DNA of 42,602 nucleotides, taken from the IMG/VR virus record IMGVR_UViG_3300045988_153375, positions 1-42,602 of that record. One strand, written 5' to 3'. Each line of letters starts with the position of its first letter. Position 1 is the first letter of the stretch. The translations under genes were made by a program, and so were the position numbers. This stretch comes from a virus. The notes beneath the pieces are model-generated. The model searched no databases. It was not told the origin of the DNA and was given only the letters and a program-made list of their open reading frames with translations. Below are positions 250 to 41,746 of this stretch, one piece after another.

Positions 250-315
250 CCCCTGCGCCCTTCAACAATGAATAGTAGTATCCGTCACAATATTTAGGAA
301 GAGAGAAGTATTACT

Positions 316-6384: not shown

Positions 6385-6428
6385 CGCACTATCAATCAAC
6401 ATTTAGGGAAGAGAGAGCAAAAACACTA

Positions 6429-8163: not shown

Positions 8164-8190
8164 CCAAACATAGGAAGAGAGAAAATTATT

Positions 8191-33154: not shown

Positions 33155-33880
33155 TCATTCAATTGGTCGGGTGCGCCATTGTGTGAGCTCCTCTTGGTGC
33201 GTGTCTATCCACGATGAGACGAGTTCACGGTGACGTTTGCGGCCTTTTTCAGTTTTATGCCGGGCCGCGAGCGCGTACGCTTTCGCCGGCACTTCCCGAG
33301 CTGTCGGGTCCCATGCGGGGACTGCGACACATTTGCAATTGTCGTGCGCCCCGAATGACGCGGTGCCCTGGCTGCGGTAGTAGCATTCGTTCATTGTGAG
33401 CATGACGCAGAAATTGCAGGCTTGCGGGTTACGTGTCCGTCTTTCCCAGCCCATTGCTTCCGGGTCGGCCCATGTCATGTCTGCGATTTGCGCTCTGGCG
33501 CCGTCGCTGACGTATCGAATGAGTGCCCCGGTCAAATAGGATAGGGCAATGTCAGGGTTTCCGGCGTATAGTGCGCCGGCGCTGAACCGTACACTGTCGT
33601 CGATTTCGCCTTGTGGGGTGAGTGGTGTTTGTACGGTGGGGGCGTCGCCTGGAATGTCTTGGTCTAGGCGCATGTCGCGGTACCATTCGTCGGCGATTGC
33701 GGCGGCCGCACCGCCGTATTGGTCTACGAGGGCGGGCATGATTTCGAGCAGAAGGTCACGGGCTTGTTCGGGGCGTTGTCTAGCGGCGTGGGCCCAGAGT
33801 GTGTGTAGATCGTTTTGGGCGAGTGCGGTGAGTGAGTCTACGGCTCGCCCGTATGCCCCGATTTCTGCGGTTGACAGCAT
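33155..33880 (-). CDS. MuF/SPP1 gp7-like head morphogenesis protein
   Basis: Position after the portal. C-terminal CNFC...HDNCKC motif. Confidence 0.65.
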   Translation of the reverse strand: MLSTAEIGAYGRAVDSLTALAQNDLHTLWAHAARQRPEQARDLLLEIMPALVDQYGGAAAAIADEWYRDMRLDQDIPGDAPTVQTPLTPQGEIDDSVRFSAGALYAGNPDIALSYLTGALIRYVSDGARAQIADMTWADPEAMGWERRTRNPQACNFCVMLTMNECYYRSQGTASFGAHDNCKCVAVPAWDPTAREVPAKAYALAARHKTEKGRKRHRELVSSWIDTHQEELTQWRTRPIE

Positions 33881-33888
33881 AATAGGTG

Positions 33889-35505
33889 TTAGTTTATTGG
33901 TGTTTTGGTGCCGCCGGGCAGTTTAATGTTGCGCTTGACCCTGTTCCTTGTATTGGGCGCGTTATTAAGGTTCAGGTTGCTGCCACTGCCGTTACTGCTA
34001 CTGTTGTTGGCGGCGTTATTGGCGTTGTTATCGTCGTCAGCGTTAGTCGCGTCGGCGTTTTCGATATTCTCGCCATTCTCATCCACCGTGCCTCCGTTGT
34101 TCGTGGCGGCGAGAGCACGATCAAGCAATGATACCGCATTCTTTTTGCGATTCTCAGCGTTAATGTCTGCGAGATCGTCCTCGGTGAGTCCGGCACGCCG
34201 CATGAGAGTCTGCGACTCCTGCAACGACGGAAACGCAGACACCATTTTGACCGCGAAATCGGCGGCAGACGACGGCGAGGAATAGCGGGCGGGGGTCCAC
34301 TTCACCGAGGTCTTCCACGACTCTTGCGGCGGCTCGTCGAGTTTGTCACGGACCATAATAATATTCTGCAGCGTACGCCGCAGCGGTGCAGAGAAGATTC
34401 GCCACTGATACTCGGCCTCGTCCGCGAGCGCCGCCTCGGACGCCTGCATCGCCTCAGCCGAGGACGGGTTATCCGCGAATATCCCGATAGCGGACTGAGG
34501 TAGGTTTGTGGCCGCGCACAAATTCTGCGCCAGTTGACGGTACATTTCCAAGTGGGGGCTCATGGTCATTTGTGAGAATTGCCCAACCGACGGGATGTCC
34601 CCGTTTTCGTTCGGCTCCAGCACTTGGACGCGGGCCATGATTGCGGACCACCTGTCTTGGCCGGCGAAATCTGCTCTTTCCGCGCCGAGCACGTAGCGTT
34701 GCGGTGAGGAGAAGAATTCTGCGGAGGTTTCTGCGCGGACCATTGTCCTCACCGCCGCGTCCGTGAGATATCTTACTTCGCGGGTGATTCGTGAGTGACC
34801 CAACGGCCGGTTCAGTTGGGGGTCGTAGCAGAGTGCTTCAACGAAAATGCGGTGGGGGGTGTCTCCGAGTTTCTCAGCCTTCCATCCACCGCCGTTTTCT
34901 CGGGCGTCGATTCGCCAAATAGCGGTGGGGGTGTGCATGATGGCGCCTGCCGGCTGCCCGTATTTGTCGGTCTGATCGATTGTGAGGGCGGCCTCGATTA
35001 TGCGACGCCTGGTGTCCCAAAGGGCGGCGGACCATTCCGCGTCACGGGCCTGCACGACGACAGGCGGCTCACCAATAGTCTCATCCCCCCGCGTCACTGT
35101 GAGCAGTGAGAAAGAATGCTTGTACGCTGAAGTGATCGCCTGCGCGAGATCAAGATCGTAATTGTTAGCGGATAGTATTTCGTTTGCTTCGAAGGCGTCG
35201 GGCGCCCCGTTCAGGGAGTAGCCTTCGAATACGTGCCGTCGGGCGAGCATGGTGACGACTTTCTGAGGCCACCCCAACGCGGCTTTGGTGCGCGTCATTT
35301 GCGGCGGAATACTGATACCCAGGTCTTGGAAAGCGCGGTGGCCGTCATAGTAGACGGAAAGCAGCTTGTTTTTGTTCGAGTGCTGCTGCCATTTCTGCCA
35401 CAGTTGCAGAAATGTTACCCGATCGTCGTCGGGTAGTCCGGAAATGCGTGTGGGTGCCGGCGTAGCATTAACGAGTCGTCCGTCGTCAGGATAAATTTCA
35501 GTCAT
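33889..35505 (-). CDS. portal protein (SPP1 gp6-like)
   Basis: 538 aa, directly downstream of TerL, with an Asn-rich low-complexity C-terminal tail. Confidence 0.9.
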   Translation of the reverse strand: MTEIYPDDGRLVNATPAPTRISGLPDDDRVTFLQLWQKWQQHSNKNKLLSVYYDGHRAFQDLGISIPPQMTRTKAALGWPQKVVTMLARRHVFEGYSLNGAPDAFEANEILSANNYDLDLAQAITSAYKHSFSLLTVTRGDETIGEPPVVVQARDAEWSAALWDTRRRIIEAALTIDQTDKYGQPAGAIMHTPTAIWRIDARENGGGWKAEKLGDTPHRIFVEALCYDPQLNRPLGHSRITREVRYLTDAAVRTMVRAETSAEFFSSPQRYVLGAERADFAGQDRWSAIMARVQVLEPNENGDIPSVGQFSQMTMSPHLEMYRQLAQNLCAATNLPQSAIGIFADNPSSAEAMQASEAALADEAEYQWRIFSAPLRRTLQNIIMVRDKLDEPPQESWKTSVKWTPARYSSPSSAADFAVKMVSAFPSLQESQTLMRRAGLTEDDLADINAENRKKNAVSLLDRALAATNNGGTVDENGENIENADATNADDDNNANNAANNSSSNGSGSNLNLNNAPNTRNRVKRNIKLPGGTKTPIN

Positions 35506-36995
35506 AGGAACAATACTCCGCCGCCACGTCCATTATTACTATTGGCGTTTTCGATTTTATCATAAGGCTTATAGCGCGGTCTTCTTTTTGTTGTGCGTGC
35601 GGCCCACATTGCGAGCGTGCATGCTTCTAGGCCGGCTACGGTGGCGCCCGGCGGTGCTTGTAGGGCCCATCCTCCGGATGTTCCGATTGGGCGTGGCGTC
35701 GCAGAAGCGGCCTCGGTCCTCAGTTGCATGTCGTCCAGGTGTGTGATTGTGTTTTCGCGTAGTGAGGCGTCTAGCATACTGTAGGCGTCTATGATTTGCG
35801 TGATCGTGGGTGTGATGATGACTTGGGGGCGTACTCCGATGGCGCGTAGTCTTTCGATTGTGTCTCCGGCACCGTATTTTCCGTCTACGATGATTTGTGC
35901 CCATCTGTCTTTTGTGTCCGCGATGTAGTCGATGATCCATTGCGTGCCTTCGCTCATGCGGCGGACGCCTTGGTGCGTGCAGAGTTCGACGTGTGTGGGC
36001 GTGTTTTGCTTGTGTCCGGCTCGGGCTAGGGCACAGGTTGACCCGTCGGGGGCGAATCGGATTGCGGCGCACCAGCGCATACCGGTCGGCGTGTTTTCTG
36101 GCCGTATTGTGGCAGTGTTCCAGGCGACAGGGTCTATTGCGAGCCTGTCGTTGGCGCGGTCCCATATTCCGAGGCCTTCACGGCGGAATGATTCTTCTCC
36201 GAGCTGCCTACGCATTCTTAGAATGGCGGATTCGGGTGTGCGGCGCGGGTATGATGGATTTGCTTTTTCCCATTGTTTCCGGTCGTCGCTGTTGGCGTCG
36301 TAGTCGGCGGCCAACTCCAAATAGAGGCCGTCTTTTATTTCGCCTTGCAGGGCGAGGTTGCGGAATTCGCTGAATGCTTCGGATGGGTCTTTCGGTTTTG
36401 GTGGTGTTCCGATTTTGATGATGAGCGGGTCCGGGGCGGTGTTTGTGGCGGGGATCATGTCGTCTAGTGCGGCGGCGCCTAGGATTTGGGCTTCGTCGAA
36501 GAGGATCATGTCTACGCCGTGGAATCCGCGTCCGAATCCTCCTTCGCGGGCGCCGAACAGGATTCGTGATCCGTTATTGAAGAGGATGGCCTGTTGTCCG
36601 TTTGCTTGCCGTATTTTGTTCACGTACGGGGCGATGTTGGGGATTTGTGCCATTCCTTTCATGTCGTTGAATGTTTCGTCGGCGGTGCGTGTGCGGTGTG
36701 CGGTCCAGAGTACGAAGTAGTTGGGGTGGAGGGTGGCGAGTGCGAATGTGAGGCCGCCGATTGTGTATGTTTTGCCGACCTGTCTGGGGATGCTGGCTTG
36801 GATTCCGTCGATGCTGGCGGCGTAGTGGCCGTCGTTTCGTTTGGCGAGGATTGCTTTGAGCCAGTCTTGCTGCCATGTGTCGAGGGGGTATTGCATTTCT
36901 TGGAGGCGGCGTTGGACTGGCGGCCAGGCGGTGTGTGTGATGTTTTCTGGGAGGGTGAGGTGGGCGGCGATTTCGCTTAGGTGTTTTTCGCTCAT
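35502..36995 (-). CDS. terL: terminase large subunit
   Basis: Walker A IPRQVGKTYT, Walker B MILFDEAQ, and a C-terminal nuclease-type domain. Confidence 0.92.
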   Translation of the reverse strand: MSEKHLSEIAAHLTLPENITHTAWPPVQRRLQEMQYPLDTWQQDWLKAILAKRNDGHYAASIDGIQASIPRQVGKTYTIGGLTFALATLHPNYFVLWTAHRTRTADETFNDMKGMAQIPNIAPYVNKIRQANGQQAILFNNGSRILFGAREGGFGRGFHGVDMILFDEAQILGAAALDDMIPATNTAPDPLIIKIGTPPKPKDPSEAFSEFRNLALQGEIKDGLYLELAADYDANSDDRKQWEKANPSYPRRTPESAILRMRRQLGEESFRREGLGIWDRANDRLAIDPVAWNTATIRPENTPTGMRWCAAIRFAPDGSTCALARAGHKQNTPTHVELCTHQGVRRMSEGTQWIIDYIADTKDRWAQIIVDGKYGAGDTIERLRAIGVRPQVIITPTITQIIDAYSMLDASLRENTITHLDDMQLRTEAASATPRPIGTSGGWALQAPPGATVAGLEACTLAMWAARTTKRRPRYKPYDKIENANSNNGRGGGVLFL

Positions 36996-36996
36996 T

Positions 36997-37278
36997 TTAG
37001 ATGCCGTCCCAGGTTTGTGTTTCGTTTGGAATGTCGGTGGTGTGTGTGGTGGTGTTTTCGTTTTGTGTGGTGGCTAGTTGGTCTGTGATTTGTATGAGTT
37101 GTGCGGTGAGTTTTGTGAGTGCTGTGTCGCCTGTTCTGGGGTCGTCTATGACGGTGGCGATTTTGTGTGCTAAGGCTTGGCGGATGAGTGTTGGGTTGCC
37201 GGTGTTTGTGGCGTCTGTGATGGGGGCGGGACTGTTGGGTTCGTATACGGTGATTGTGGTGTTTGTGTGGGTTGTCAT
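36997..37278 (-). CDS. hypothetical protein (93 aa), positional candidate for the small terminase
   Basis: It ends 1 nt before the terL ATG. There is no recognisable motif. The T/N-rich ends reflect the local A/C-rich strand composition. Confidence 0.45.
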   Translation of the reverse strand: MTTHTNTTITVYEPNSPAPITDATNTGNPTLIRQALAHKIATVIDDPRTGDTALTKLTAQLIQITDQLATTQNENTTTHTTDIPNETQTWDGI

Positions 37279-37285
37279 GTCTTCT

Positions 37286-37291
37286 ATTATA
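37286..37291 (-). promoter_or_regulatory. candidate -10 TATAAT placed 7 nt from ATG 37278 (leaderless late/packaging operon start)
   Basis: The minus strand reads TATAAT-AGAAGAC-ATG. Confidence 0.4.
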
Positions 37292-37320
37292 TGTGGTGGT
37301 GTGAGTCACGTCTGGTGGGG

Positions 37321-37447
37321 TTTTCCACAGGGTTATCCACAGGGTGGAGGGTTTTCCACAGGGTTTTCCACAGGTTGGGGAGTTTTCCACATGATGGCGG
37401 TCACATTGTGATGTGGGTTACTGGAGTTATCCACAGGGTTTTCCACA
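37321..37447 (+). promoter_or_regulatory. cluster of seven DnaA-box consensus 9-mers TT(A/T)TCCACA, all in one orientation
   Basis: Boxes at 37321-29, 37333-41, 37352-60, 37364-72, 37383-91, 37427-35 and 37439-47. Two are TTATCCACA and five are TTTTCCACA. Most are followed by GG(G). Confidence 0.7.
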
Positions 37448-37559
37448 AGCAGGGAGGGATGGGCAGACCTTCGGGGTGTTCGCGGCCGGATGGGGGAGGG
37501 GGGGTGGCCCCCATCACATAATTTGTGTGGTGTGCGTCTCGTTTACGTGTGTTCCCTGT

Positions 37560-37980
37560 GTTGTTTGTGATGTGGGTCCCATGCCTAAGGGATCCCTTAC
37601 TGCGTTGGGGCCCCCTTTTTGTTCGTCTCGTTTTGTTGCCATGGTTTTTTTGAACGCCATTGTTGTTTCACGCTTTGCATGTTTTTGCGTGTTTTTGTAA
37701 CATTTCTTTTGTTTTTATGCATTTTTGTGTGTTTGTGCGTTTGTGCGTTGTGCTTGCCTTGTGGCATGCGTTGGCACCATGCATGGTGCATGGTGTTGGT
37801 ATGCATGTCATGCATCACATCATCATGTGTTCACTATCATGTTCATGATGTTCATCATTGATGATCGTTGATCATCATGATGTTCGTCGTTCATTGTTCA
37901 TTGATTGTTGATTGAACGTTGATCATCGATCATCGTTGATCATTGTTGTTCGTTGGTTGTGTGAACGTGAACAGTGTGAG
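37560..37980. other. AT-rich, palindrome-dense low-complexity tract (candidate DNA unwinding element / protein-binding array)
   Basis: Contains TAAGGGATCCCTTA (37586-99), T-runs, ATGCAT/CCATGCATGG palindromes, several TGATCA sites, and CGTTGATCAT three times (37866, 37917, 37934). No credible ORF. Confidence 0.5.
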
Positions 37981-39062
37981 GTGAGACAGTGGATGGTGTC
38001 CATCCTCGTCGGCGTGTTCTGTTATTGAATGGCGGTGGGGTGTGCTGCTGTCCTGCCGCAGTGCAGTGGTGTGCCCCGCGCCTTACTCATCCCACTGCAG
38101 TGCTGCTGAGTACTGCGATCGTGTCGTGTATTGTTCCTTGCCGGGTGTGTGGTGCAGTGTGGGTGAGTGTGCGTCTGTGGTGTTTGTGTGGTGGGGTATC
38201 CTCCGATGACCCTCCCCCATTCGTGGTGGTGGGTGGGGCCATCATGGTTGGTGGGGTGGCATGACGAGGCGGGGGTGGCATGACTGGGGAAGGGCGGTAG
38301 TGTCGCGGGTATCCCCTTCCGTGTATGGGTGTCCCCCGTCTGTTCGCGTGGTGGTCCCGTTGAAGGGCGGGAGTGGCGTGTGTTGTGATGTCCCGTCTTC
38401 GGATCGGGTTCTCCCCTTTCACATTGTCCCTGTCCTCTCGCATTGTCTCGCTTCCCTGTTGTGTTGTGTGTTGTGGGTGGGGAAGTGTGGTGGCGTGTGG
38501 TGTCCGTTACACATTGCGTTGTGGTGTATGTCTCTGTGTGCGAGTGGTGGGGTTGTGTGGAGTGTGGAATGTCGGTGGTGGTAGAACTGTGTCCCTCTCT
38601 TCTCTCTCTTCTCCCCTCCCTCATCTTTGTGTTTGCTGTCACGGTATTGTTGGTTTAGGGGGGCGTCTTTGTGTCAGGGTTGTGTCATTGTGGAATAGCG
38701 GTGATGGTTTGTGTTGGGTAGAAGGGTGTGTGCGGTGTCTACTGTCTGCTGTGTACTGTGTACTGTTCTCCCTTCTGTGTTGTGGTGTATGTGTGGTGGT
38801 CATGTCGCATTGTGTTGTGGGTTGTGGAATGGCGGTGCGTGAGGGGTGTGGTCTCGTCGTTTGTCTTCTTTTGTTCTCTTCCTTCTCTTCTTCTTCCTTT
38901 GTGCTGGTGTTCGGGGTAGTGCGCGCGCAGCTCTGCGAGCACGCACGTTATCCCCGAACACCATTGTGTCCCCTCGTTGCTTGTTCGTCCTCTTCTCTCT
39001 TCTTCTCCCCGCCTTTCTTCACCGTCCGTCTTTCATTGTGTTGGAATGGCGGGGGGGGTGAT
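37981..39062. other. about 1.1-kb extremely G/T-skewed (plus strand) apparently non-coding region
   Basis: The plus strand is almost free of A. Long ORFs on both strands have aberrant composition (C/V/G/L-rich or T/H/P-rich). There are no RBS-plus-start combinations. Confidence 0.6.
38905..38963. repeat. conserved hairpin element, copy A
   Basis: The 34-nt core TAGTGCGCGCGCAGCTCTGCGAGCACGCACGTTA is enclosed by the 12-bp stem TGGTGTTCGGGG / CCCCGAACACCA. Confidence 0.75.
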
Positions 39063-39407
39063 TCACCATGTGTCGGTGTGTTGTGTTGGCATGACGGCGA
39101 CGGGTAGTCTGTCTCGTTCGTCTTCGTTTTTCTGGTAGTGGCGCGCTCTTCCTTTGCCGTGCTTGCCGTTGCCTCGTCTGCTGTTGCATTTGGCGCATAA
39201 CACTCTGCCGTTGTCTGGGTGATTGGTTCCGCCTAGTGATGCTGGGATTATGTGGTCTGCTTCGGCGCTGTTTGGTTTGCGTTGTCCGTTGTTGTTGTAT
39301 TGGAGTTTTACTCCGCATGCTGGGCAGTGTGTGATGCCCATTGCTTGTGCTCGTGCGAGTACTTGTTTTCTGAATTGTTTGTGTTCTCGTGTGCTTGTTC
39401 TGCTCAC
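39063..39407 (-). CDS. HNH endonuclease
   Basis: CPACG...AEADHIIPASLGGTNHPDNGRVLCAKCNSRRGN (HNH core with paired Cys). GTG start follows AAGAAGAGAA. Confidence 0.9.
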   Translation of the reverse strand: MSRTSTREHKQFRKQVLARAQAMGITHCPACGVKLQYNNNGQRKPNSAEADHIIPASLGGTNHPDNGRVLCAKCNSRRGNGKHGKGRARHYQKNEDERDRLPVAVMPTQHTDTW

Positions 39408-39779: not shown

Positions 39780-39835
39780 TAGACACTGTCTAGTTCTGTT
39801 AGACAGTGTCTAATTCTAGTACTCTTTTAAGAGTA
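39780..39835. promoter_or_regulatory. three operator-like palindromes
   Basis: TAGACACTGTCTA (39780-92), TTAGACAGTGTCTAA (39799-813) and TACTCTT-TT-AAGAGTA (39820-35), in an AT-rich gap. Confidence 0.6.
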
Positions 39836-39876
39836 TAGGTTGGGCCCAACACAGTGGCGAGCTCTTCGAAAACACC

Positions 39877-39931: not shown

Positions 39932-40153
39932 ATCGTCTTCGACGATTCGTCTACTCGAGTGTAGCATATAGACTAAAGTCCCAACAACAAACACTGCCAA
40001 CAAAACAAACGCAACAGGGACCATTCGTTGCAACCATGCGAAACACCTGACACAAAACCTTGCTGAAAGGGCAGAAAGTGTGACGACACACACCAACGTT
40101 GTAGTAACACAAACGGGTGTTTTCACCCTAGAACGCCAGTTACTAGCAAACAA
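39914..40153 (-). CDS. doubtful small membrane-protein ORF
   Basis: TTG start without an RBS, and T-ending codons unlike other genes. The hydrophobic segment VPVAFVLLAVFVVGTLVYML could equally be a composition artefact. Confidence 0.25.
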   Translation of the reverse strand: MFASNWRSRVKTPVCVTTTLVCVVTLSALSARFCVRCFAWLQRMVPVAFVLLAVFVVGTLVYMLHSSRRIVEDDLRRSR

Positions 40154-40166
40154 CCCACTTGCGTAG

Positions 40167-40211
40167 AAAGTAAACGGAAGATGAACAAAGTAAACGGGAG
40201 GTTAACGGAAC
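40167..40211. repeat. direct repeats AAAGTAAACGG(A/G)AG x2 plus a GTTAACGGAAC half-copy
   Basis: Copies at 40167-80 and 40187-200 (20-bp phase), with a related copy at 40201-11. Confidence 0.6.
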
Positions 40212-40283
40212 TGTGAGAGATTGGCATGAGCGCCGGCACCACACACCCATCACATACCGCCCTTCCACCATCCGAGACGCACT

Positions 40284-40317
40284 GAGGCCCCACCCTCATC
40301 GTGGAGAGTGGGGCCTC
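40284..40317 (-). terminator. hairpin terminator after gene 40339-40683
   Basis: 14-bp stem GAGGCCCCACCCTC / GAGAGTGGGGCCTC with one mismatch. Confidence 0.55.
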
Positions 40318-40338
40318 GTCGTCCTCAGACCAGTCAGG

Positions 40339-40683
40339 TCAGTAGGGCCAGATGAAACGGTACAGCAGGGCACGCGAGTCGACGCCCACCTCCTCGTCGA
40401 CGACGGGGATGAGAGCGACCTCGAGGATGGCGTGAGCGAGATAGGCGTCCATGGCGAGACGTGCGAGGCGAGACCAAATGCCCATGTCGGCCATCGCGTA
40501 CTCGTAGGAGTCATCCCATCCGTCGGAGACATCCGGCGGCTCGATCGAGCTGACGCCACTCTCGTCGGCCACCTTGTACAGGGTCCAGGGTTCGCCAGTG
40601 CGGGGAGCACGGATCCGGTAGACGGCCCCGTGCTCGACAGTGTTGAGGGCGGGGTCCTCGGTGCGGTAGATGGTGGTGCTCAT
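40339..40683 (-). CDS. acidic hypothetical protein (114 aa) in the GC-rich island
   Basis: ATG 40683 follows GGGGAAGAGAAA. Third codon positions are strongly G/C-ending. The longer 40731 start would run into the upstream terminator stem. Confidence 0.6.
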   Translation of the reverse strand: MSTTIYRTEDPALNTVEHGAVYRIRAPRTGEPWTLYKVADESGVSSIEPPDVSDGWDDSYEYAMADMGIWSRLARLAMDAYLAHAILEVALIPVVDEEVGVDSRALLYRFIWPY

Positions 40684-40723
40684 TTTCTCTTCCCCTTGGT
40701 TGGTTGGGTTGTTCCGTTGGTAT

Positions 40724-40772
40724 GAGGACACTCCCCGGGTCTTGCGCTAGTCAAGACCCGGGGAGTGTCCTC
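40724..40772 (-). terminator. strong hairpin terminator between the two island genes
   Basis: 21-bp perfect stem GAGGACACTCCCCGGGTCTTG / CAAGACCCGGGGAGTGTCCTC with a 7-nt loop. Confidence 0.75.
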
Positions 40773-40814
40773 TGTCATCGTGCGGTTGTCCTGCGACAGG
40801 AAGGGCGGGGCGGG

Positions 40815-41081
40815 TCAGCCGGCCAACTCGGTCAGCTCGGCCACGAAGACCTCGTTGGCCTCGGCCCGGTCGATCAACCGCCGCAGCGCGACATTGATCC
40901 GGCTCGCCGTCTCCACCCCCTCGAATTCCCTGATGTCGTTCGTGGACTCGGTGGCGAAGTCGCGCACCAGCTGGAACCCCTCGTCGGGGTAGAGGTCGAA
41001 CATGAAGAGTCGCAGCATCGCACGCAGGTACTGGTCGGCGACCTCCTCGTGGTCTTCGGCGTAGCGGAGTGTGAGGGCCAT
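40815..41081 (-). CDS. acidic hypothetical protein (88 aa; start uncertain, alternatives at 41141 and 41306)
   Basis: G/C-ending codons throughout. The helical acidic sequence begins MALTLRYAEDHEEVADQY... No clear RBS. Confidence 0.5.
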   Translation of the reverse strand: MALTLRYAEDHEEVADQYLRAMLRLFMFDLYPDEGFQLVRDFATESTNDIREFEGVETASRINVALRRLIDRAEANEVFVAELTELAG

Positions 41082-41228
41082 CGTGGTCTCAGGCTCGAGT
41101 CCGGGTGAGATGCGCGGAGTAGATGAGGCGTCCACGTCCATAGGATGACACGGACGGGGCGGCAGCGCAAGCCCATGGGGCACAGAAGCTCCCAGACCCA
41201 CTGAGGTACATCTCATGCACGCTGGGGC

Positions 41229-41258
41229 TTGACAGGGCCCCCCCCGCCCTTCTATAGT
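41229..41258 (+). promoter_or_regulatory. near-consensus sigma-70/SigA-type early promoter
   Basis: TTGACA (41229-34), an 18-nt spacer, then TATAGT (41253-58). It lies about 50 nt upstream of ATG 41309. Confidence 0.65.
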
Positions 41259-41308
41259 GGACGCACCGCCGAAGGTCGGTGTACGAAGAAAGAGAGGACG
41301 GAACACGA

Positions 41309-41746
41309 ATGGGCAACACAGTAGATGAGGGGATGCTCGTCCGACACATGGATCTGCGCAGGACCGCGAAGTTGTCAGACGATTCTCTGGCCCGGCTCAC
41401 AATTATGATCGAGCACATGGATGGCACGAACTACATGGTGAGCGTCGTTGACAAAAAAGAGACGCCCGAGCATTTGACGACTCTGCTCGCCGCTGTCGGT
41501 CGTGGCGCTAACCTGATGTTCCGCGCCCTCGACATTCTCCGTACTGTCGGGTACGTGGACGTGCACCCTGTTGCACTATTGGGTAGGGAGATCGTTTTTG
41601 GTTTGAACCGTGTCTCGCTTGAGGTCGAGGTCGTTGAGCACGGTGACGGCGAGATCGAGTGCGGTATTAGCGTTGCCGGCGTGAATGTGGAGAATGTTGA
41701 GGAGATTGGTGGCGTACTGGAGGAGAACGGTATTGACGTTGTGTGA
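41309..41746 (+). CDS. hypothetical early protein (145 aa)
   Basis: ATG 41309 follows GAAAGAGAGGA. It is the first gene after the early promoter. Confidence 0.6.
   Translation: MGNTVDEGMLVRHMDLRRTAKLSDDSLARLTIMIEHMDGTNYMVSVVDKKETPEHLTTLLAAVGRGANLMFRALDILRTVGYVDVHPVALLGREIVFGLNRVSLEVEVVEHGDGEIECGISVAGVNVENVEEIGGVLEENGIDVV

What the first reader, a model, noticed from the sequence alone, without database searches (positions are those of the whole stretch)
40213..41228. GC-rich two-gene island encoding strongly acidic proteins, each with its own strong terminator, divergent from the early promoter
Composition changes abruptly here. Both minus-strand genes (40683-40339, 114 aa; about 41081-40815, 88 aa) use almost exclusively G/C-ending codons, unlike the rest of the phage. 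That points to recent acquisition from a higher-GC actinobacterial source. By hand count each protein has about 19 D/E against about 9 K/R, and I recognise no family. Each gene is followed by its own hairpin: a 21-bp perfect stem at 40724-40772 and a 14-bp stem at 40284-40317. The genes are therefore insulated single-gene units (moron-like). The island lies back-to-back with the consensus early promoter (41229-58), where immunity, exclusion or counter-defence genes usually sit. Small, highly acidic, independently transcribed phage proteins are typical of DNA mimics and other anti-restriction, anti-CRISPR or anti-defence factors. Alternatively the pair could be an unrecognised immunity or exclusion module. 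The function is pure inference.
Basis: partly seen in the sequence, partly recalled or inferred. Interest (0 to 1): 0.62.

Follow-up and report, generated by a model that had tools for sequence, protein, structure and literature searches.

The report
Old GC-rich accessory gene pair in phage
A 1.1-kb GC-rich block in this uncultivated phage really does carry two small acidic proteins of unknown family, but the block is an old feature shared by a large group of related phages, and each gene has been lost several times, so these are dispensable accessory genes of unproven function.

Summary
Window 40200-41300 is a GC-rich block (0.58-0.70 per 100 nt). It carries two minus-strand genes: A (40683..40339, 114 aa) and B (88-aa core, more likely about 106 aa from GTG 41135). 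Their GC3 is 0.84 and 0.93, against 0.64 ± 0.05 for 27 other genes. Each has 19 D/E against 9 K/R. Each is followed by a strong hairpin, and the block sits back-to-back with a near-consensus promoter.

- **Not recent.** About 30 related ~43-kb phage genomes carry the same genes at the same place with the same high GC3. The consensus GC3 is 0.92-0.93 and is decaying.
- **No source, no family.** No donor, known family or fold match was found.
- **Dispensable.** Both genes are under purifying selection (dN/dS about 0.3), yet B was deleted in at least five separate ways and A damaged at least four times. They are independent of each other and not an obligate pair.
- **Hairpins.** They are conserved with compensatory changes and fold best in the gene-sense RNA, but lack U-tracts. 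A has no room for its own promoter, so "insulated units" is unproven.
- **Acidity.** It is the highest in this phage but far below Ocr (34 acidic / 6 basic in 116 aa).

My best guess, at low confidence, is early host-directed binding proteins.

The parts
40200..41300 (.). GC-rich compositional block, covering both coding and non-coding DNA
   Evidence: GC is 0.58-0.70 per 100 nt against 0.43-0.48 to the left and 0.53-0.58 to the right. Non-coding pieces inside it are 0.58-0.69, against 0.41-0.56 in other intergenic gaps.
40339..40683 (-). Gene A: 114-aa acidic protein of no known family (P0001), predicted beta-beta-beta-alpha-beta-beta
   Evidence: GC3 0.84, 19 D/E against 9 K/R, pI 4.39. 533 clusters of homologues, all on ~42-45-kb phage-like contigs or fragments. 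Only 28 representatives at 50% identity among 1.84 billion proteins. dN/dS 0.35. AF2 pLDDT 63, and no fold match.
40684..40723 (-). Conserved leader and purine-rich ribosome-binding site of gene A
   Evidence: Highly conserved in relatives as ...ACCAACAGAACAnCCCAACCGACCAGGAAGGAAAGAGAAAATG. It holds the fourth genomic copy of GGAAGAGARA, found otherwise upstream of three early genes; 4 copies found against 0.08 expected.
40724..40772 (-). Hairpin 1: perfect 21-bp stem between B and A
   Evidence: Fold -53.6 kcal/mol, z -7.4. In most relatives it is a 12-14-bp core plus an outer AGAA/UUCU tier, with compensatory changes. It is retained next to A in six genomes that lost B and is absent in L012 and L042.
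40284..40317 (-). Hairpin 2: 14-bp stem just downstream of gene A
   Evidence: Fold -50.2 kcal/mol in the minus sense against -38.1 in the plus sense. It is conserved in 16 genomes. Seven of the 24 pairs in the consensus fold of this region show compensatory changes, and the G.U pairs work only in the gene-sense RNA. There is no U-tract.
40815..41141 (-). Gene B: acidic protein with an 88-aa helical core from ATG 41081; the likely true start is GTG 41135 (106 aa) or ATG 41141 (108 aa, P0123)
   Evidence: GC3 0.93, 19 D/E against 9 K/R in the core. AF2 pLDDT 87, five helices, no PDB fold match. The only BFVD match is a member of its own family. The in-frame N-terminal tail MDTSTAPHISPxLEPET is conserved. 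Some relatives lack an ATG at the 'MALT' position, and L028 has an in-frame 18-nt deletion. 1054 clusters with a profile search. dN/dS 0.29.
41142..41170 (-). Candidate promoter of gene B: -35 TTGCGC (41170-41165), 17-nt spacer, -10 CATCCT (41147-41142). GTG 41135 lies 7 nt downstream, which would give a leaderless mRNA (inferred).
   Evidence: The block cTTGCGCtgccRcc...CAyCAT followed by 6 nt and then ATG is conserved in all relatives that keep B. No Shine-Dalgarno sequence precedes either candidate start. There is no transcript evidence.
41229..41258 (+). Near-consensus early promoter facing away from the block
   Evidence: TTGACA-18-TATAGT, 11 of 12 positions. Conserved in 20 related loci.
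41309..41746 (+). Gene C: first early gene on the opposite strand (145 aa, acidic, no known family). Used as the neighbouring control gene.
   Evidence: GC3 0.68, pI 4.62. No family hits. Present in every related locus that reaches its position.

Best explanation
The block is an old accessory cassette, foreign in composition, in a large clade of uncultivated ~43-kb phages that look like phages of Actinobacteria. It lies where the replication (early) arm meets the non-coding/HNH/packaging end of the genome.

It encodes two soluble, acidic proteins found only in this clade:
- A: 114 aa, mixed alpha/beta.
- B: about 106 aa, a short disordered tail plus a five-helix bundle.

B appears to have its own weak sigma-A-type promoter, back-to-back with the strong early promoter, and is probably translated from a leaderless mRNA. 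A follows behind a long stem-loop and a conserved leader with a strong ribosome-binding site. It is most likely co-transcribed with B, with the stem-loops acting in the gene-sense RNA as 3'-end, stabilising or processing elements rather than as classical terminators.

The cassette was already present, with GC3 of at least 0.9, in the ancestor of the sampled clade. It has been drifting towards the phage's lower GC ever since.

Both proteins are kept by purifying selection where intact, yet each has been deleted or broken several times independently. They are therefore conditionally useful, non-essential and independent of each other.

The most likely mechanism is inferred, not shown: they are made early from host-RNA-polymerase promoters and bind host proteins. 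The targets could be defence systems, nucleases or the transcription machinery, and the proteins would pay off only in some hosts.
For: Shown:
- The GC3 outlier and the regional GC rise, which includes non-coding DNA.
- The same genes with the same high GC3 in 16-19 related loci. dS is about 0.44 and dN/dS 0.29-0.35, like the control gene C.
- Consensus GC3 of 0.92 (A) and 0.93 (B). Third-position changes from consensus run S->W 276 to W->S 52 in A, and 104 to 28 in B. GC3 falls with divergence (rho -0.58 and -0.64, p<0.01). The trend is weaker in control gene C (357:207, rho -0.24, not significant).
- Both families are confined to this phage clade. No hit in Pfam, PHROGs, NCBIfam, PADLOC or PDB sequences, nor in cultured phages.
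- Census of about 31 genomes: 18 have both genes, 8 have A only (plus one with a frameshifted B), and 4 have A deleted or damaged. B shows at least five different deletion junctions.
- Both hairpins are conserved with compensatory changes. For hairpin 2 the G.U pairs work only in the sense RNA. Hairpin 1 recurs in the individual folds of relatives, with 4 of 16 consensus pairs changed on both sides.
- The conserved -35/-10 block sits 6-7 nt ahead of the conserved in-frame start of B.
- A's leader shares GGAAGAGARA with three early genes.
- The arm facing away carries replication genes: primase/helicase, exonuclease, SNF2 helicase and AAA_24.

Inferred: the timing of expression, the leaderless start, co-transcription of A with B, and host-protein binding.
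Against:
- The function has no positive evidence beyond size, charge, position and dispensability.
- A's structure model is weak (pLDDT 63), so a known fold could have been missed.
- The codon shift of A and B correlates with that of the major capsid and tail genes (rho 0.54-0.63). Part of the GC3 excess could therefore come from selection for high expression rather than foreign origin.
- The crude substitution rates imply a higher equilibrium GC3 for A and B (0.69 and 0.78) than for C (0.59).
- In L012 and L042, A persists without B's promoter, so a second promoter that I could not identify must exist upstream.
- The host is unknown.
Confidence: 0.4

Rival explanations
1. The high GC3 does not mark foreign origin. 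It reflects selection for translationally optimal, C/G-ending codons, because A and B must be made quickly and in quantity. On this reading the cassette is native to the phage lineage.
For: The codon-usage shift of A+B against the background correlates with the shift of the major capsid plus major tail genes (Spearman 0.54 in the window, 0.63 with pooled relatives). Both sets favour ACC, CTC, GTC, GGC, AAG, GAG, GAC, CAC and TAC, and avoid A-ending codons and TTG. The crude implied equilibrium GC3 is higher for A and B than for C. A carries the phage's own strong leader motif.
Against: A and B are more extreme than the capsid and tail genes (GC3 0.84 and 0.93 against 0.70-0.76). They also avoid the T-ending codons those genes like (GTT, GGT, CGT, ATT). 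Non-coding DNA within the block is GC-rich too. Changes away from G/C outnumber changes towards G/C by about 4-5 to 1, and GC3 falls with divergence. S->W changes per site are only 13-33% rarer than in the control gene.
Confidence: 0.25
2. One or both proteins are DNA mimics of the Ocr/ArdA type. They would block host type I restriction, BREX or similar DNA-binding defences as soon as the phage DNA enters.
For: They are small, soluble, the most acidic (B) and fifth most acidic (A) proteins of the phage, dispensable, and close to a host-type promoter near a genome end. Recurrent loss fits arms-race genes.
Against: Net charge is about -10 (19 acidic, 9 basic). Ocr has 34 acidic and 6 basic residues in 116 aa (PMC3439906). 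There is no sequence or fold similarity to any solved structure, including DNA mimics. The neighbouring early protein C is just as acidic (pI 4.62, net -13), so the acidity is not special to the island.
Confidence: 0.1
3. The proteins regulate the phage's own programme. For example, a small helical factor (B) could bind RNA polymerase or sigma to shift transcription from early to late promoters. They would sit at the divergent control region for that reason.
For: Position at the divergent promoter region, upstream of the operator-like palindromes and the HNH/packaging block on the same strand. B is a compact acidic helical bundle of about the size of known phage factors that bind sigma or RNA polymerase (the comparison rests on general knowledge of T4 AsiA and T7 Gp2, not on a test).
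Against: A core regulator should not be lost in about 30% (B) or about 10% (A) of otherwise full-length genomes. No fold match to AsiA, Gp2 or other solved factors. No DNA-binding or known regulatory domain.
Confidence: 0.15
4. The pair is an immunity, superinfection-exclusion or toxin-antitoxin module.
For: Two adjacent small genes next to a switch-like divergent region.
Against: No integrase, repressor or other lysogeny function among the 20 other proteins scanned. Both proteins are soluble and acidic, without membrane segments or HTH hits. Genomes with A only and with B only both exist, so neither gene depends on the other. No PADLOC hit.
Confidence: 0.05

Closest known systems
Phage morons (independent accessory transcription units of lambdoid phages such as HK97 and lambda; concept recalled from general knowledge)
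   Same: Small extra genes set between conserved blocks. Their base composition differs from the neighbours. They are bounded by a promoter-like site and stem-loops, and are present in some related genomes and absent from others at the same site.
   Different: Classical morons are expressed from prophages and are often recent and patchy. This cassette is ancestral to a whole clade and then repeatedly lost. No lysogeny genes were found. The stem-loops lack U-tracts, and A has no room for a promoter of its own.
T7 Ocr (gp0.3) and ArdA DNA-mimic anti-restriction proteins
   Same: Size of about 110 aa, acidic, soluble, dispensable in the laboratory sense, and encoded near a host-type promoter close to a genome end.
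   Different: Ocr has 34 acidic and 6 basic residues in 116 aa (PMC3439906), against 19 and 9 here. There is no sequence or fold similarity. A is predicted to be rich in beta strands.
T7 early-region intercistronic RNase III hairpins, and U-tract-less stem-loops of Actinobacteria (recalled from general knowledge)
   Same: Long (about 20 bp) stem-loops lie between and after short early cistrons. They are conserved as RNA structures in the sense strand.
   Different: No cleavage or termination data exist here. The window's hairpin 1 is a perfect 21-bp stem, while relatives have a two-tier stem with an internal loop. A role as terminator, stabiliser or processing site cannot be told apart from sequence.
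Anti-CRISPR (acr-aca) operons
   Same: Small acidic proteins of no known family in a short operon with its own promoter, variable among related phages.
   Different: No HTH (Aca-type) gene is adjacent, and no similarity to solved Acr structures was found.

Membership tests
DNA-mimic anti-restriction proteins (Ocr/ArdA type) | Extreme excess of acidic over basic residues, arranged like DNA phosphates (Ocr: 34 D/E against 6 K/R in 116 aa) | tested here: not met
   A has 19 D/E against 9 K/R in 114 aa. B has 19 against 9 in 88 aa, or about 23 against 10 in 108 aa (D+E 0.213, K+R 0.093). Ocr figures are from PMC3439906.
DNA-mimic anti-restriction proteins (Ocr/ArdA type) | Fold or sequence similarity to a known mimic | tested here: not met
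   No PDB sequence hit. The best Foldseek PDB match has E 0.07 for A (low-confidence model, so inconclusive for A) and E 1.8 for B (pLDDT 87).
DNA-mimic anti-restriction proteins (Ocr/ArdA type) | Inhibits a DNA-binding defence enzyme | not testable with these tools
   Needs expression and plating or binding assays.
Phage moron | Composition distinct from the flanking phage genes | tested here: met
   GC3 0.84 and 0.93 against 0.644 ± 0.052.
Phage moron | Present or absent at the same site among related genomes | tested here: met
   18 genomes with both genes, 8 with A only, 4 with A missing or damaged; distinct deletion junctions.
Phage moron | Own promoter and own terminator for each gene | tested here: inconclusive
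   B has a conserved -35/-10-like block. A has only 40 nt between hairpin 1 and its start. The hairpins are conserved but lack U-tracts. No transcript data.
Phage moron | Expressed from the prophage, for the benefit of the lysogen | not testable with these tools
   No lysogeny functions were found among the proteins scanned. No prophage copy was found in 185,579 species genomes by the pattern search.
Intrinsic (factor-independent) terminator | GC-rich stem-loop | tested here: met
   21-bp and 14-bp stems, z -7.4 and -6.0.
Intrinsic (factor-independent) terminator | U-tract directly after the stem | tested here: not met
   Neither hairpin was called by the scan. The tails read AUACCAAC and AGUGCGUC. 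Relatives have a partly U-rich AUUCUUAU after hairpin 1.
Toxin-antitoxin pair | The two genes are kept together | tested here: not met
   Both A-only and B-only genomes exist.
Anti-CRISPR operon | An adjacent HTH regulator (Aca), or similarity to a known Acr | tested here: not met
   No HTH or any other Pfam hit in A, B or C. No PDB sequence or fold match. No dedicated Acr library was available.

The most novel reading that the evidence does not exclude
A and B could be counter-defence proteins that some host defence systems themselves sense, as has been described for other phage anti-restriction proteins that trigger abortive infection. That would explain why two proteins under clear purifying selection have each been deleted many times independently in a very abundant phage clade. 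On this reading the presence or absence of each gene marks which host defences a given phage lineage faces.
Probability: 0.12. Interest if true: 0.6.

Novelty: new member of a known kind. Interest (0 to 1): 0.33.

Why it matters
The phage clade is very common in public metagenomes: A and B give hundreds to about a thousand protein clusters at 90% identity. The one structure-database relative of B comes from a record named 'Siphoviridae sp. ctQ091', a naming style I know from human virome catalogues. Two conserved yet repeatedly lost proteins of no known family, next to the early promoter, are reasonable candidates for new host-directed or counter-defence functions in phages of Actinobacteria, where few such factors are known. 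The natural deletion variants amount to ready-made knock-outs. The case is also a useful caution: a sharp GC3 island in a phage is not proof of recent transfer. Comparison with relatives dates this one to before the clade diversified. As it stands, this is an ordinary accessory cassette of unknown function, not a new kind of system.

Tried and rejected
Searches that found nothing:
- Family searches of A, B and C in Pfam, PHROGs, NCBIfam and PADLOC, and Pfam scans of 32 members of each of the A and B families. No consistent hit.
- PDB profile searches.
- Foldseek against the PDB for both models, and against BFVD for B. The only match was B's own family.
- blastn and tblastn against 50,697 phage records.
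- A profile HMM search of 1.84 billion representative proteins with A. Only clade members and fragments came back. One spurious repetitive 652-aa hit (P0256) was rejected on reading it.
- tRNA and Rfam scans of the window.
- Searches for further copies of the B-promoter motif. No further copy of the B-promoter motif; the pattern from the conserved block upstream of it found none.

Host or donor search, also without result:
- Pattern scans of 185,579 species genomes with A and with the endolysin.
- The endolysin against cultured phages was not informative.
- The genome search cannot draw relatives for a virus record and gave no handles for control genomes.

Ideas rejected:
- The long plus-strand ORFs antisense to A and B (40213-40725 and 40704-41108) are not genes. 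They are open in only about half of the relatives, exactly as synonymous-codon shuffles predict.
- The strand-skewed zone around HNH and the terminase does not cause the island. There, silent positions are rich in A and C and depleted in G. In A and B both A and T are depleted, and the skew inverts between the two regions.
- A toxin-antitoxin reading, because each gene occurs without the other.
Full report
**What the window is.** The window is a complete IMG/VR virus record of 42,602 bp. Its 55-nt terminal repeat is an assembly overlap, so the unique genome is 42,547 bp. The minus strand carries the packaging and structural genes. These include an HNH endonuclease at 39407..39063, the large terminase at 36995..35502, the portal, a 1520-aa tape measure protein and an endolysin-like protein. 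The plus strand, starting at 41309 and running across the junction, carries replication genes: primase/helicase, an SNF2 helicase, an AAA_24 protein and an exonuclease. The large terminase is 46-50% identical to those of Arthrobacter, Rothia and Propionibacterium freudenreichii phages, so an actinobacterial host is likely, though I could not identify it. No integrase or repressor appeared among the 20 other proteins scanned.

**Checking the observation.**
- In 100-nt windows GC jumps from 0.43-0.48 to 0.58-0.70 between 40200 and 41299, then falls back.
- Total GC is not unique, since two other 350-nt windows also reach 0.66. GC3 is unique: 0.84 for gene A (40683..40339) and 0.93 for gene B (41081..40815). 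Twenty-seven confident genes average 0.644 ± 0.052 with a maximum of 0.758, and no 100-codon window inside them exceeds 0.78.
- Both proteins have exactly 19 D/E and 9 K/R, with pI about 4.4. B is the most acidic and A the fifth most acidic of 44 phage proteins. The neighbouring early protein C (pI 4.62) and several others come close.
- The two hairpins are real. One is a perfect 21-bp stem at 40724-40772, the other a 14-bp stem at 40284-40317, with z-scores of -7.4 and -6.0 against shuffles.
- The promoter TTGACA-18-TATAGT at 41229-41258 matches 11 of 12 positions.

**A correction to gene B.** Relatives conserve an in-frame N-terminal tail, MDTSTAPHISPxLEPET. A conserved TTGCGC-17-CAyCAT block lies 6-7 nt ahead of that upstream start, and neither candidate start has a Shine-Dalgarno sequence. 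In the window this puts the likely start at GTG 41135, giving 106 aa on a leaderless mRNA. This is an inference from sequence, with no transcript evidence.

**The island is old, not recent.** A and B have no match in cultured phages. They do occur in many metagenomic contigs of 41-45 kb: 533 clusters at 90% identity for A and 1054 for B with a profile search. In viral contigs and assemblies I recovered about 30 distinct related genomes with the same order: C, then B and A on the other strand, then the non-coding region and HNH. In every one, the A and B homologues keep GC3 of 0.78-0.90 while neighbouring genes sit near 0.55-0.70. These copies differ by a median dS of 0.44 for A and share 65-90% amino-acid identity. 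dN/dS is 0.35 (A) and 0.29 (B), much like the control gene C at 0.32. The cassette therefore predates the diversification of this clade and encodes proteins under selection.

**What maintains the composition?** Two lines of evidence pull in different directions.
- *For selection on expression.* The codon shift of A+B against the background correlates with that of the major capsid and tail genes (Spearman 0.54, or 0.63 with pooled relatives). Both sets share a preference for ACC, CTC, GTC, GGC, AAG, GAG and GAC.
- *For an old foreign cassette that is slowly decaying.* A and B are more extreme than the capsid and tail genes and avoid the T-ending codons those genes favour. Non-coding DNA inside the block is GC-rich too (0.58-0.69 against 0.41-0.56 elsewhere). 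The composition is not at equilibrium: the consensus of relatives has GC3 of 0.92 and 0.93. Changes away from G/C outnumber changes towards G/C by 276:52 in A and 104:28 in B, and GC3 falls with divergence (rho -0.58 and -0.64). The control gene shows a weaker, non-significant trend.

I read this as a cassette that entered the lineage with GC3 of at least 0.9 and is decaying slowly, perhaps slowed by some codon selection. No donor was found. The A family has only 28 representatives at 50% identity among 1.84 billion proteins, all clade members or fragments. The pattern scan of 185,579 species genomes was empty.

**The long antisense ORFs are not genes.** The plus-strand ORFs antisense to A and B are by-products of GC-rich codons. 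They are open in about half of the relatives, which is what synonymous shuffles predict.

**The genes are dispensable and independent.** Of about 31 genomes:
- 18 have both genes.
- 8 have only A, and one more has a frameshifted B.
- 4 have A deleted or damaged: L027 is a clean deletion, L022 an internal deletion, L016 an in-frame internal deletion, and L023 a single deletion running from B codon 71 through A.

B shows at least five different deletion junctions:
- L032 keeps the promoter and start, fused in frame to the last six codons.
- L044 has a different cut.
- L016 keeps only the 3' end.
- L003, L005 and L048 keep only hairpin 1.
- L012 and L042 lose the hairpin as well.

One database protein (P0263) is a B-A fusion. 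Recurrent independent loss, set against purifying selection in intact copies, is the pattern expected of conditionally useful genes. It also rules out an obligate pair such as a toxin-antitoxin system.

**The hairpins.** Hairpin 2 is conserved in 16 genomes. Seven of the 24 pairs in the consensus fold of this region show compensatory changes, and the G.U pairs exist only in the gene-sense RNA. Hairpin 1 recurs in most relatives as a 12-14-bp core with an outer tier, again with covariation. Neither has a U-tract in the window. Only 40 nt, occupied by a conserved leader and ribosome-binding site, separate hairpin 1 from A's start. When B is deleted, hairpin 1 usually stays attached to A. The hairpins are therefore real RNA elements of the A/B transcripts. 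Whether they terminate, stabilise or mark processing sites cannot be decided from sequence. The claim of 'insulated single-gene units' is unproven, and co-transcription of A with B is at least as likely. A's leader carries the fourth genomic copy of GGAAGAGARA, otherwise found upstream of three early genes (4 found, 0.08 expected). This hints at early-type translation signals.

**What the proteins are.** No library recognises either protein.
- AlphaFold2 gives B a confident five-helix bundle (pLDDT 87). It has no PDB neighbour (best E 1.8). Its only BFVD neighbour is a member of its own family from an uncultured 'Siphoviridae sp. ctQ091'.
- A's model is weak (pLDDT 63, beta-beta-beta-alpha-beta-beta) and has no significant neighbour (best E 0.07, TM below 0.4).
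- Compared with the archetypal DNA mimic Ocr (34 acidic and 6 basic residues in 116 aa; PMC3439906), A and B are only moderately acidic.

**Verdict.** The block is a real, well-delimited accessory cassette, foreign in composition and ancestral to a large clade of uncultivated phages. It encodes two new families of small acidic proteins, which are non-essential and repeatedly lost. My best reading, at about 0.4 overall and lower for the functional part, is that they are early-made proteins that bind host factors. The DNA-mimic, regulatory and exclusion readings are weaker alternatives. Earlier notes of this scan place a cohesive end near 37.46 kb and call the phage human-associated. I used these only as leads and did not test them. 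The scan had not noted A or B on other DNA.

Noticed in passing
window 33155-39407 (minus-strand genes HNH, terminase, portal region): Silent codon positions of the genes nearest the packaging end are strongly strand-skewed. HNH third positions are A 0.47, C 0.45, G 0.07, T 0.01. The large terminase has T3 0.05 and G3 0.13, and G-ending Lys/Glu/Gln codons fall to 27%. This is a different bias from the A/B island, where both A and T are depleted. Earlier notes of the scan describe the same zone.
   Followed up: partly
window 37300-37470 (minus strand): A cluster of CTGTGGATAAC / CTGTGGAAAAC repeats. TGTGGATAA is the reverse complement of the DnaA-box consensus. The cluster sits at the start of the packaging block. 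It was already reported by an earlier follow-up of this scan.
   Followed up: no
window 297-306, 6407-6416, 8173-8182 (+) and 40693-40684 (-): GGAAGAGARA occurs four times against 0.08 expected, each time just upstream of a gene start. Three copies precede early genes and one precedes gene A.
   Followed up: partly
window 39950-40283, and the matching stretch of relatives (e.g. L023:5240-5400): The non-coding stretch downstream of hairpin 2 is strongly conserved among relatives (GGAAGGGCGGTGTGTGAT..., TCTTTCACAGTTTCCGTTAACC). It contains GTAAACGG/GTTAACGG direct repeats. The ORFs there are not conserved in frame, so it is probably a non-coding element.
   Followed up: no
protein P0263 (metagenomic, 107 aa) and locus L023:5001-5250: Natural fusions and deletions join B's first ~70 residues either to A's last ~38 residues (P0263) or to the sequence beyond hairpin 2 (L023). 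The cassette appears to be deletion-prone.
   Followed up: partly
L032:3168-3400 (minus strand of the locus): In this relative B is reduced to a 19-codon in-frame mini-ORF (MDTSTTPHISPDLEAELAD). It keeps the promoter-like block, the start and the last six codons.
   Followed up: no
window 39780-39860 (minus strand): Paired TAGACAnTGTCTA palindromes lie next to a promoter-like site, TCGCCA-17-TATACT (39860..39832, minus), downstream of the A/B unit and upstream of HNH. This could be the control point of the packaging/late transcript.
   Followed up: no
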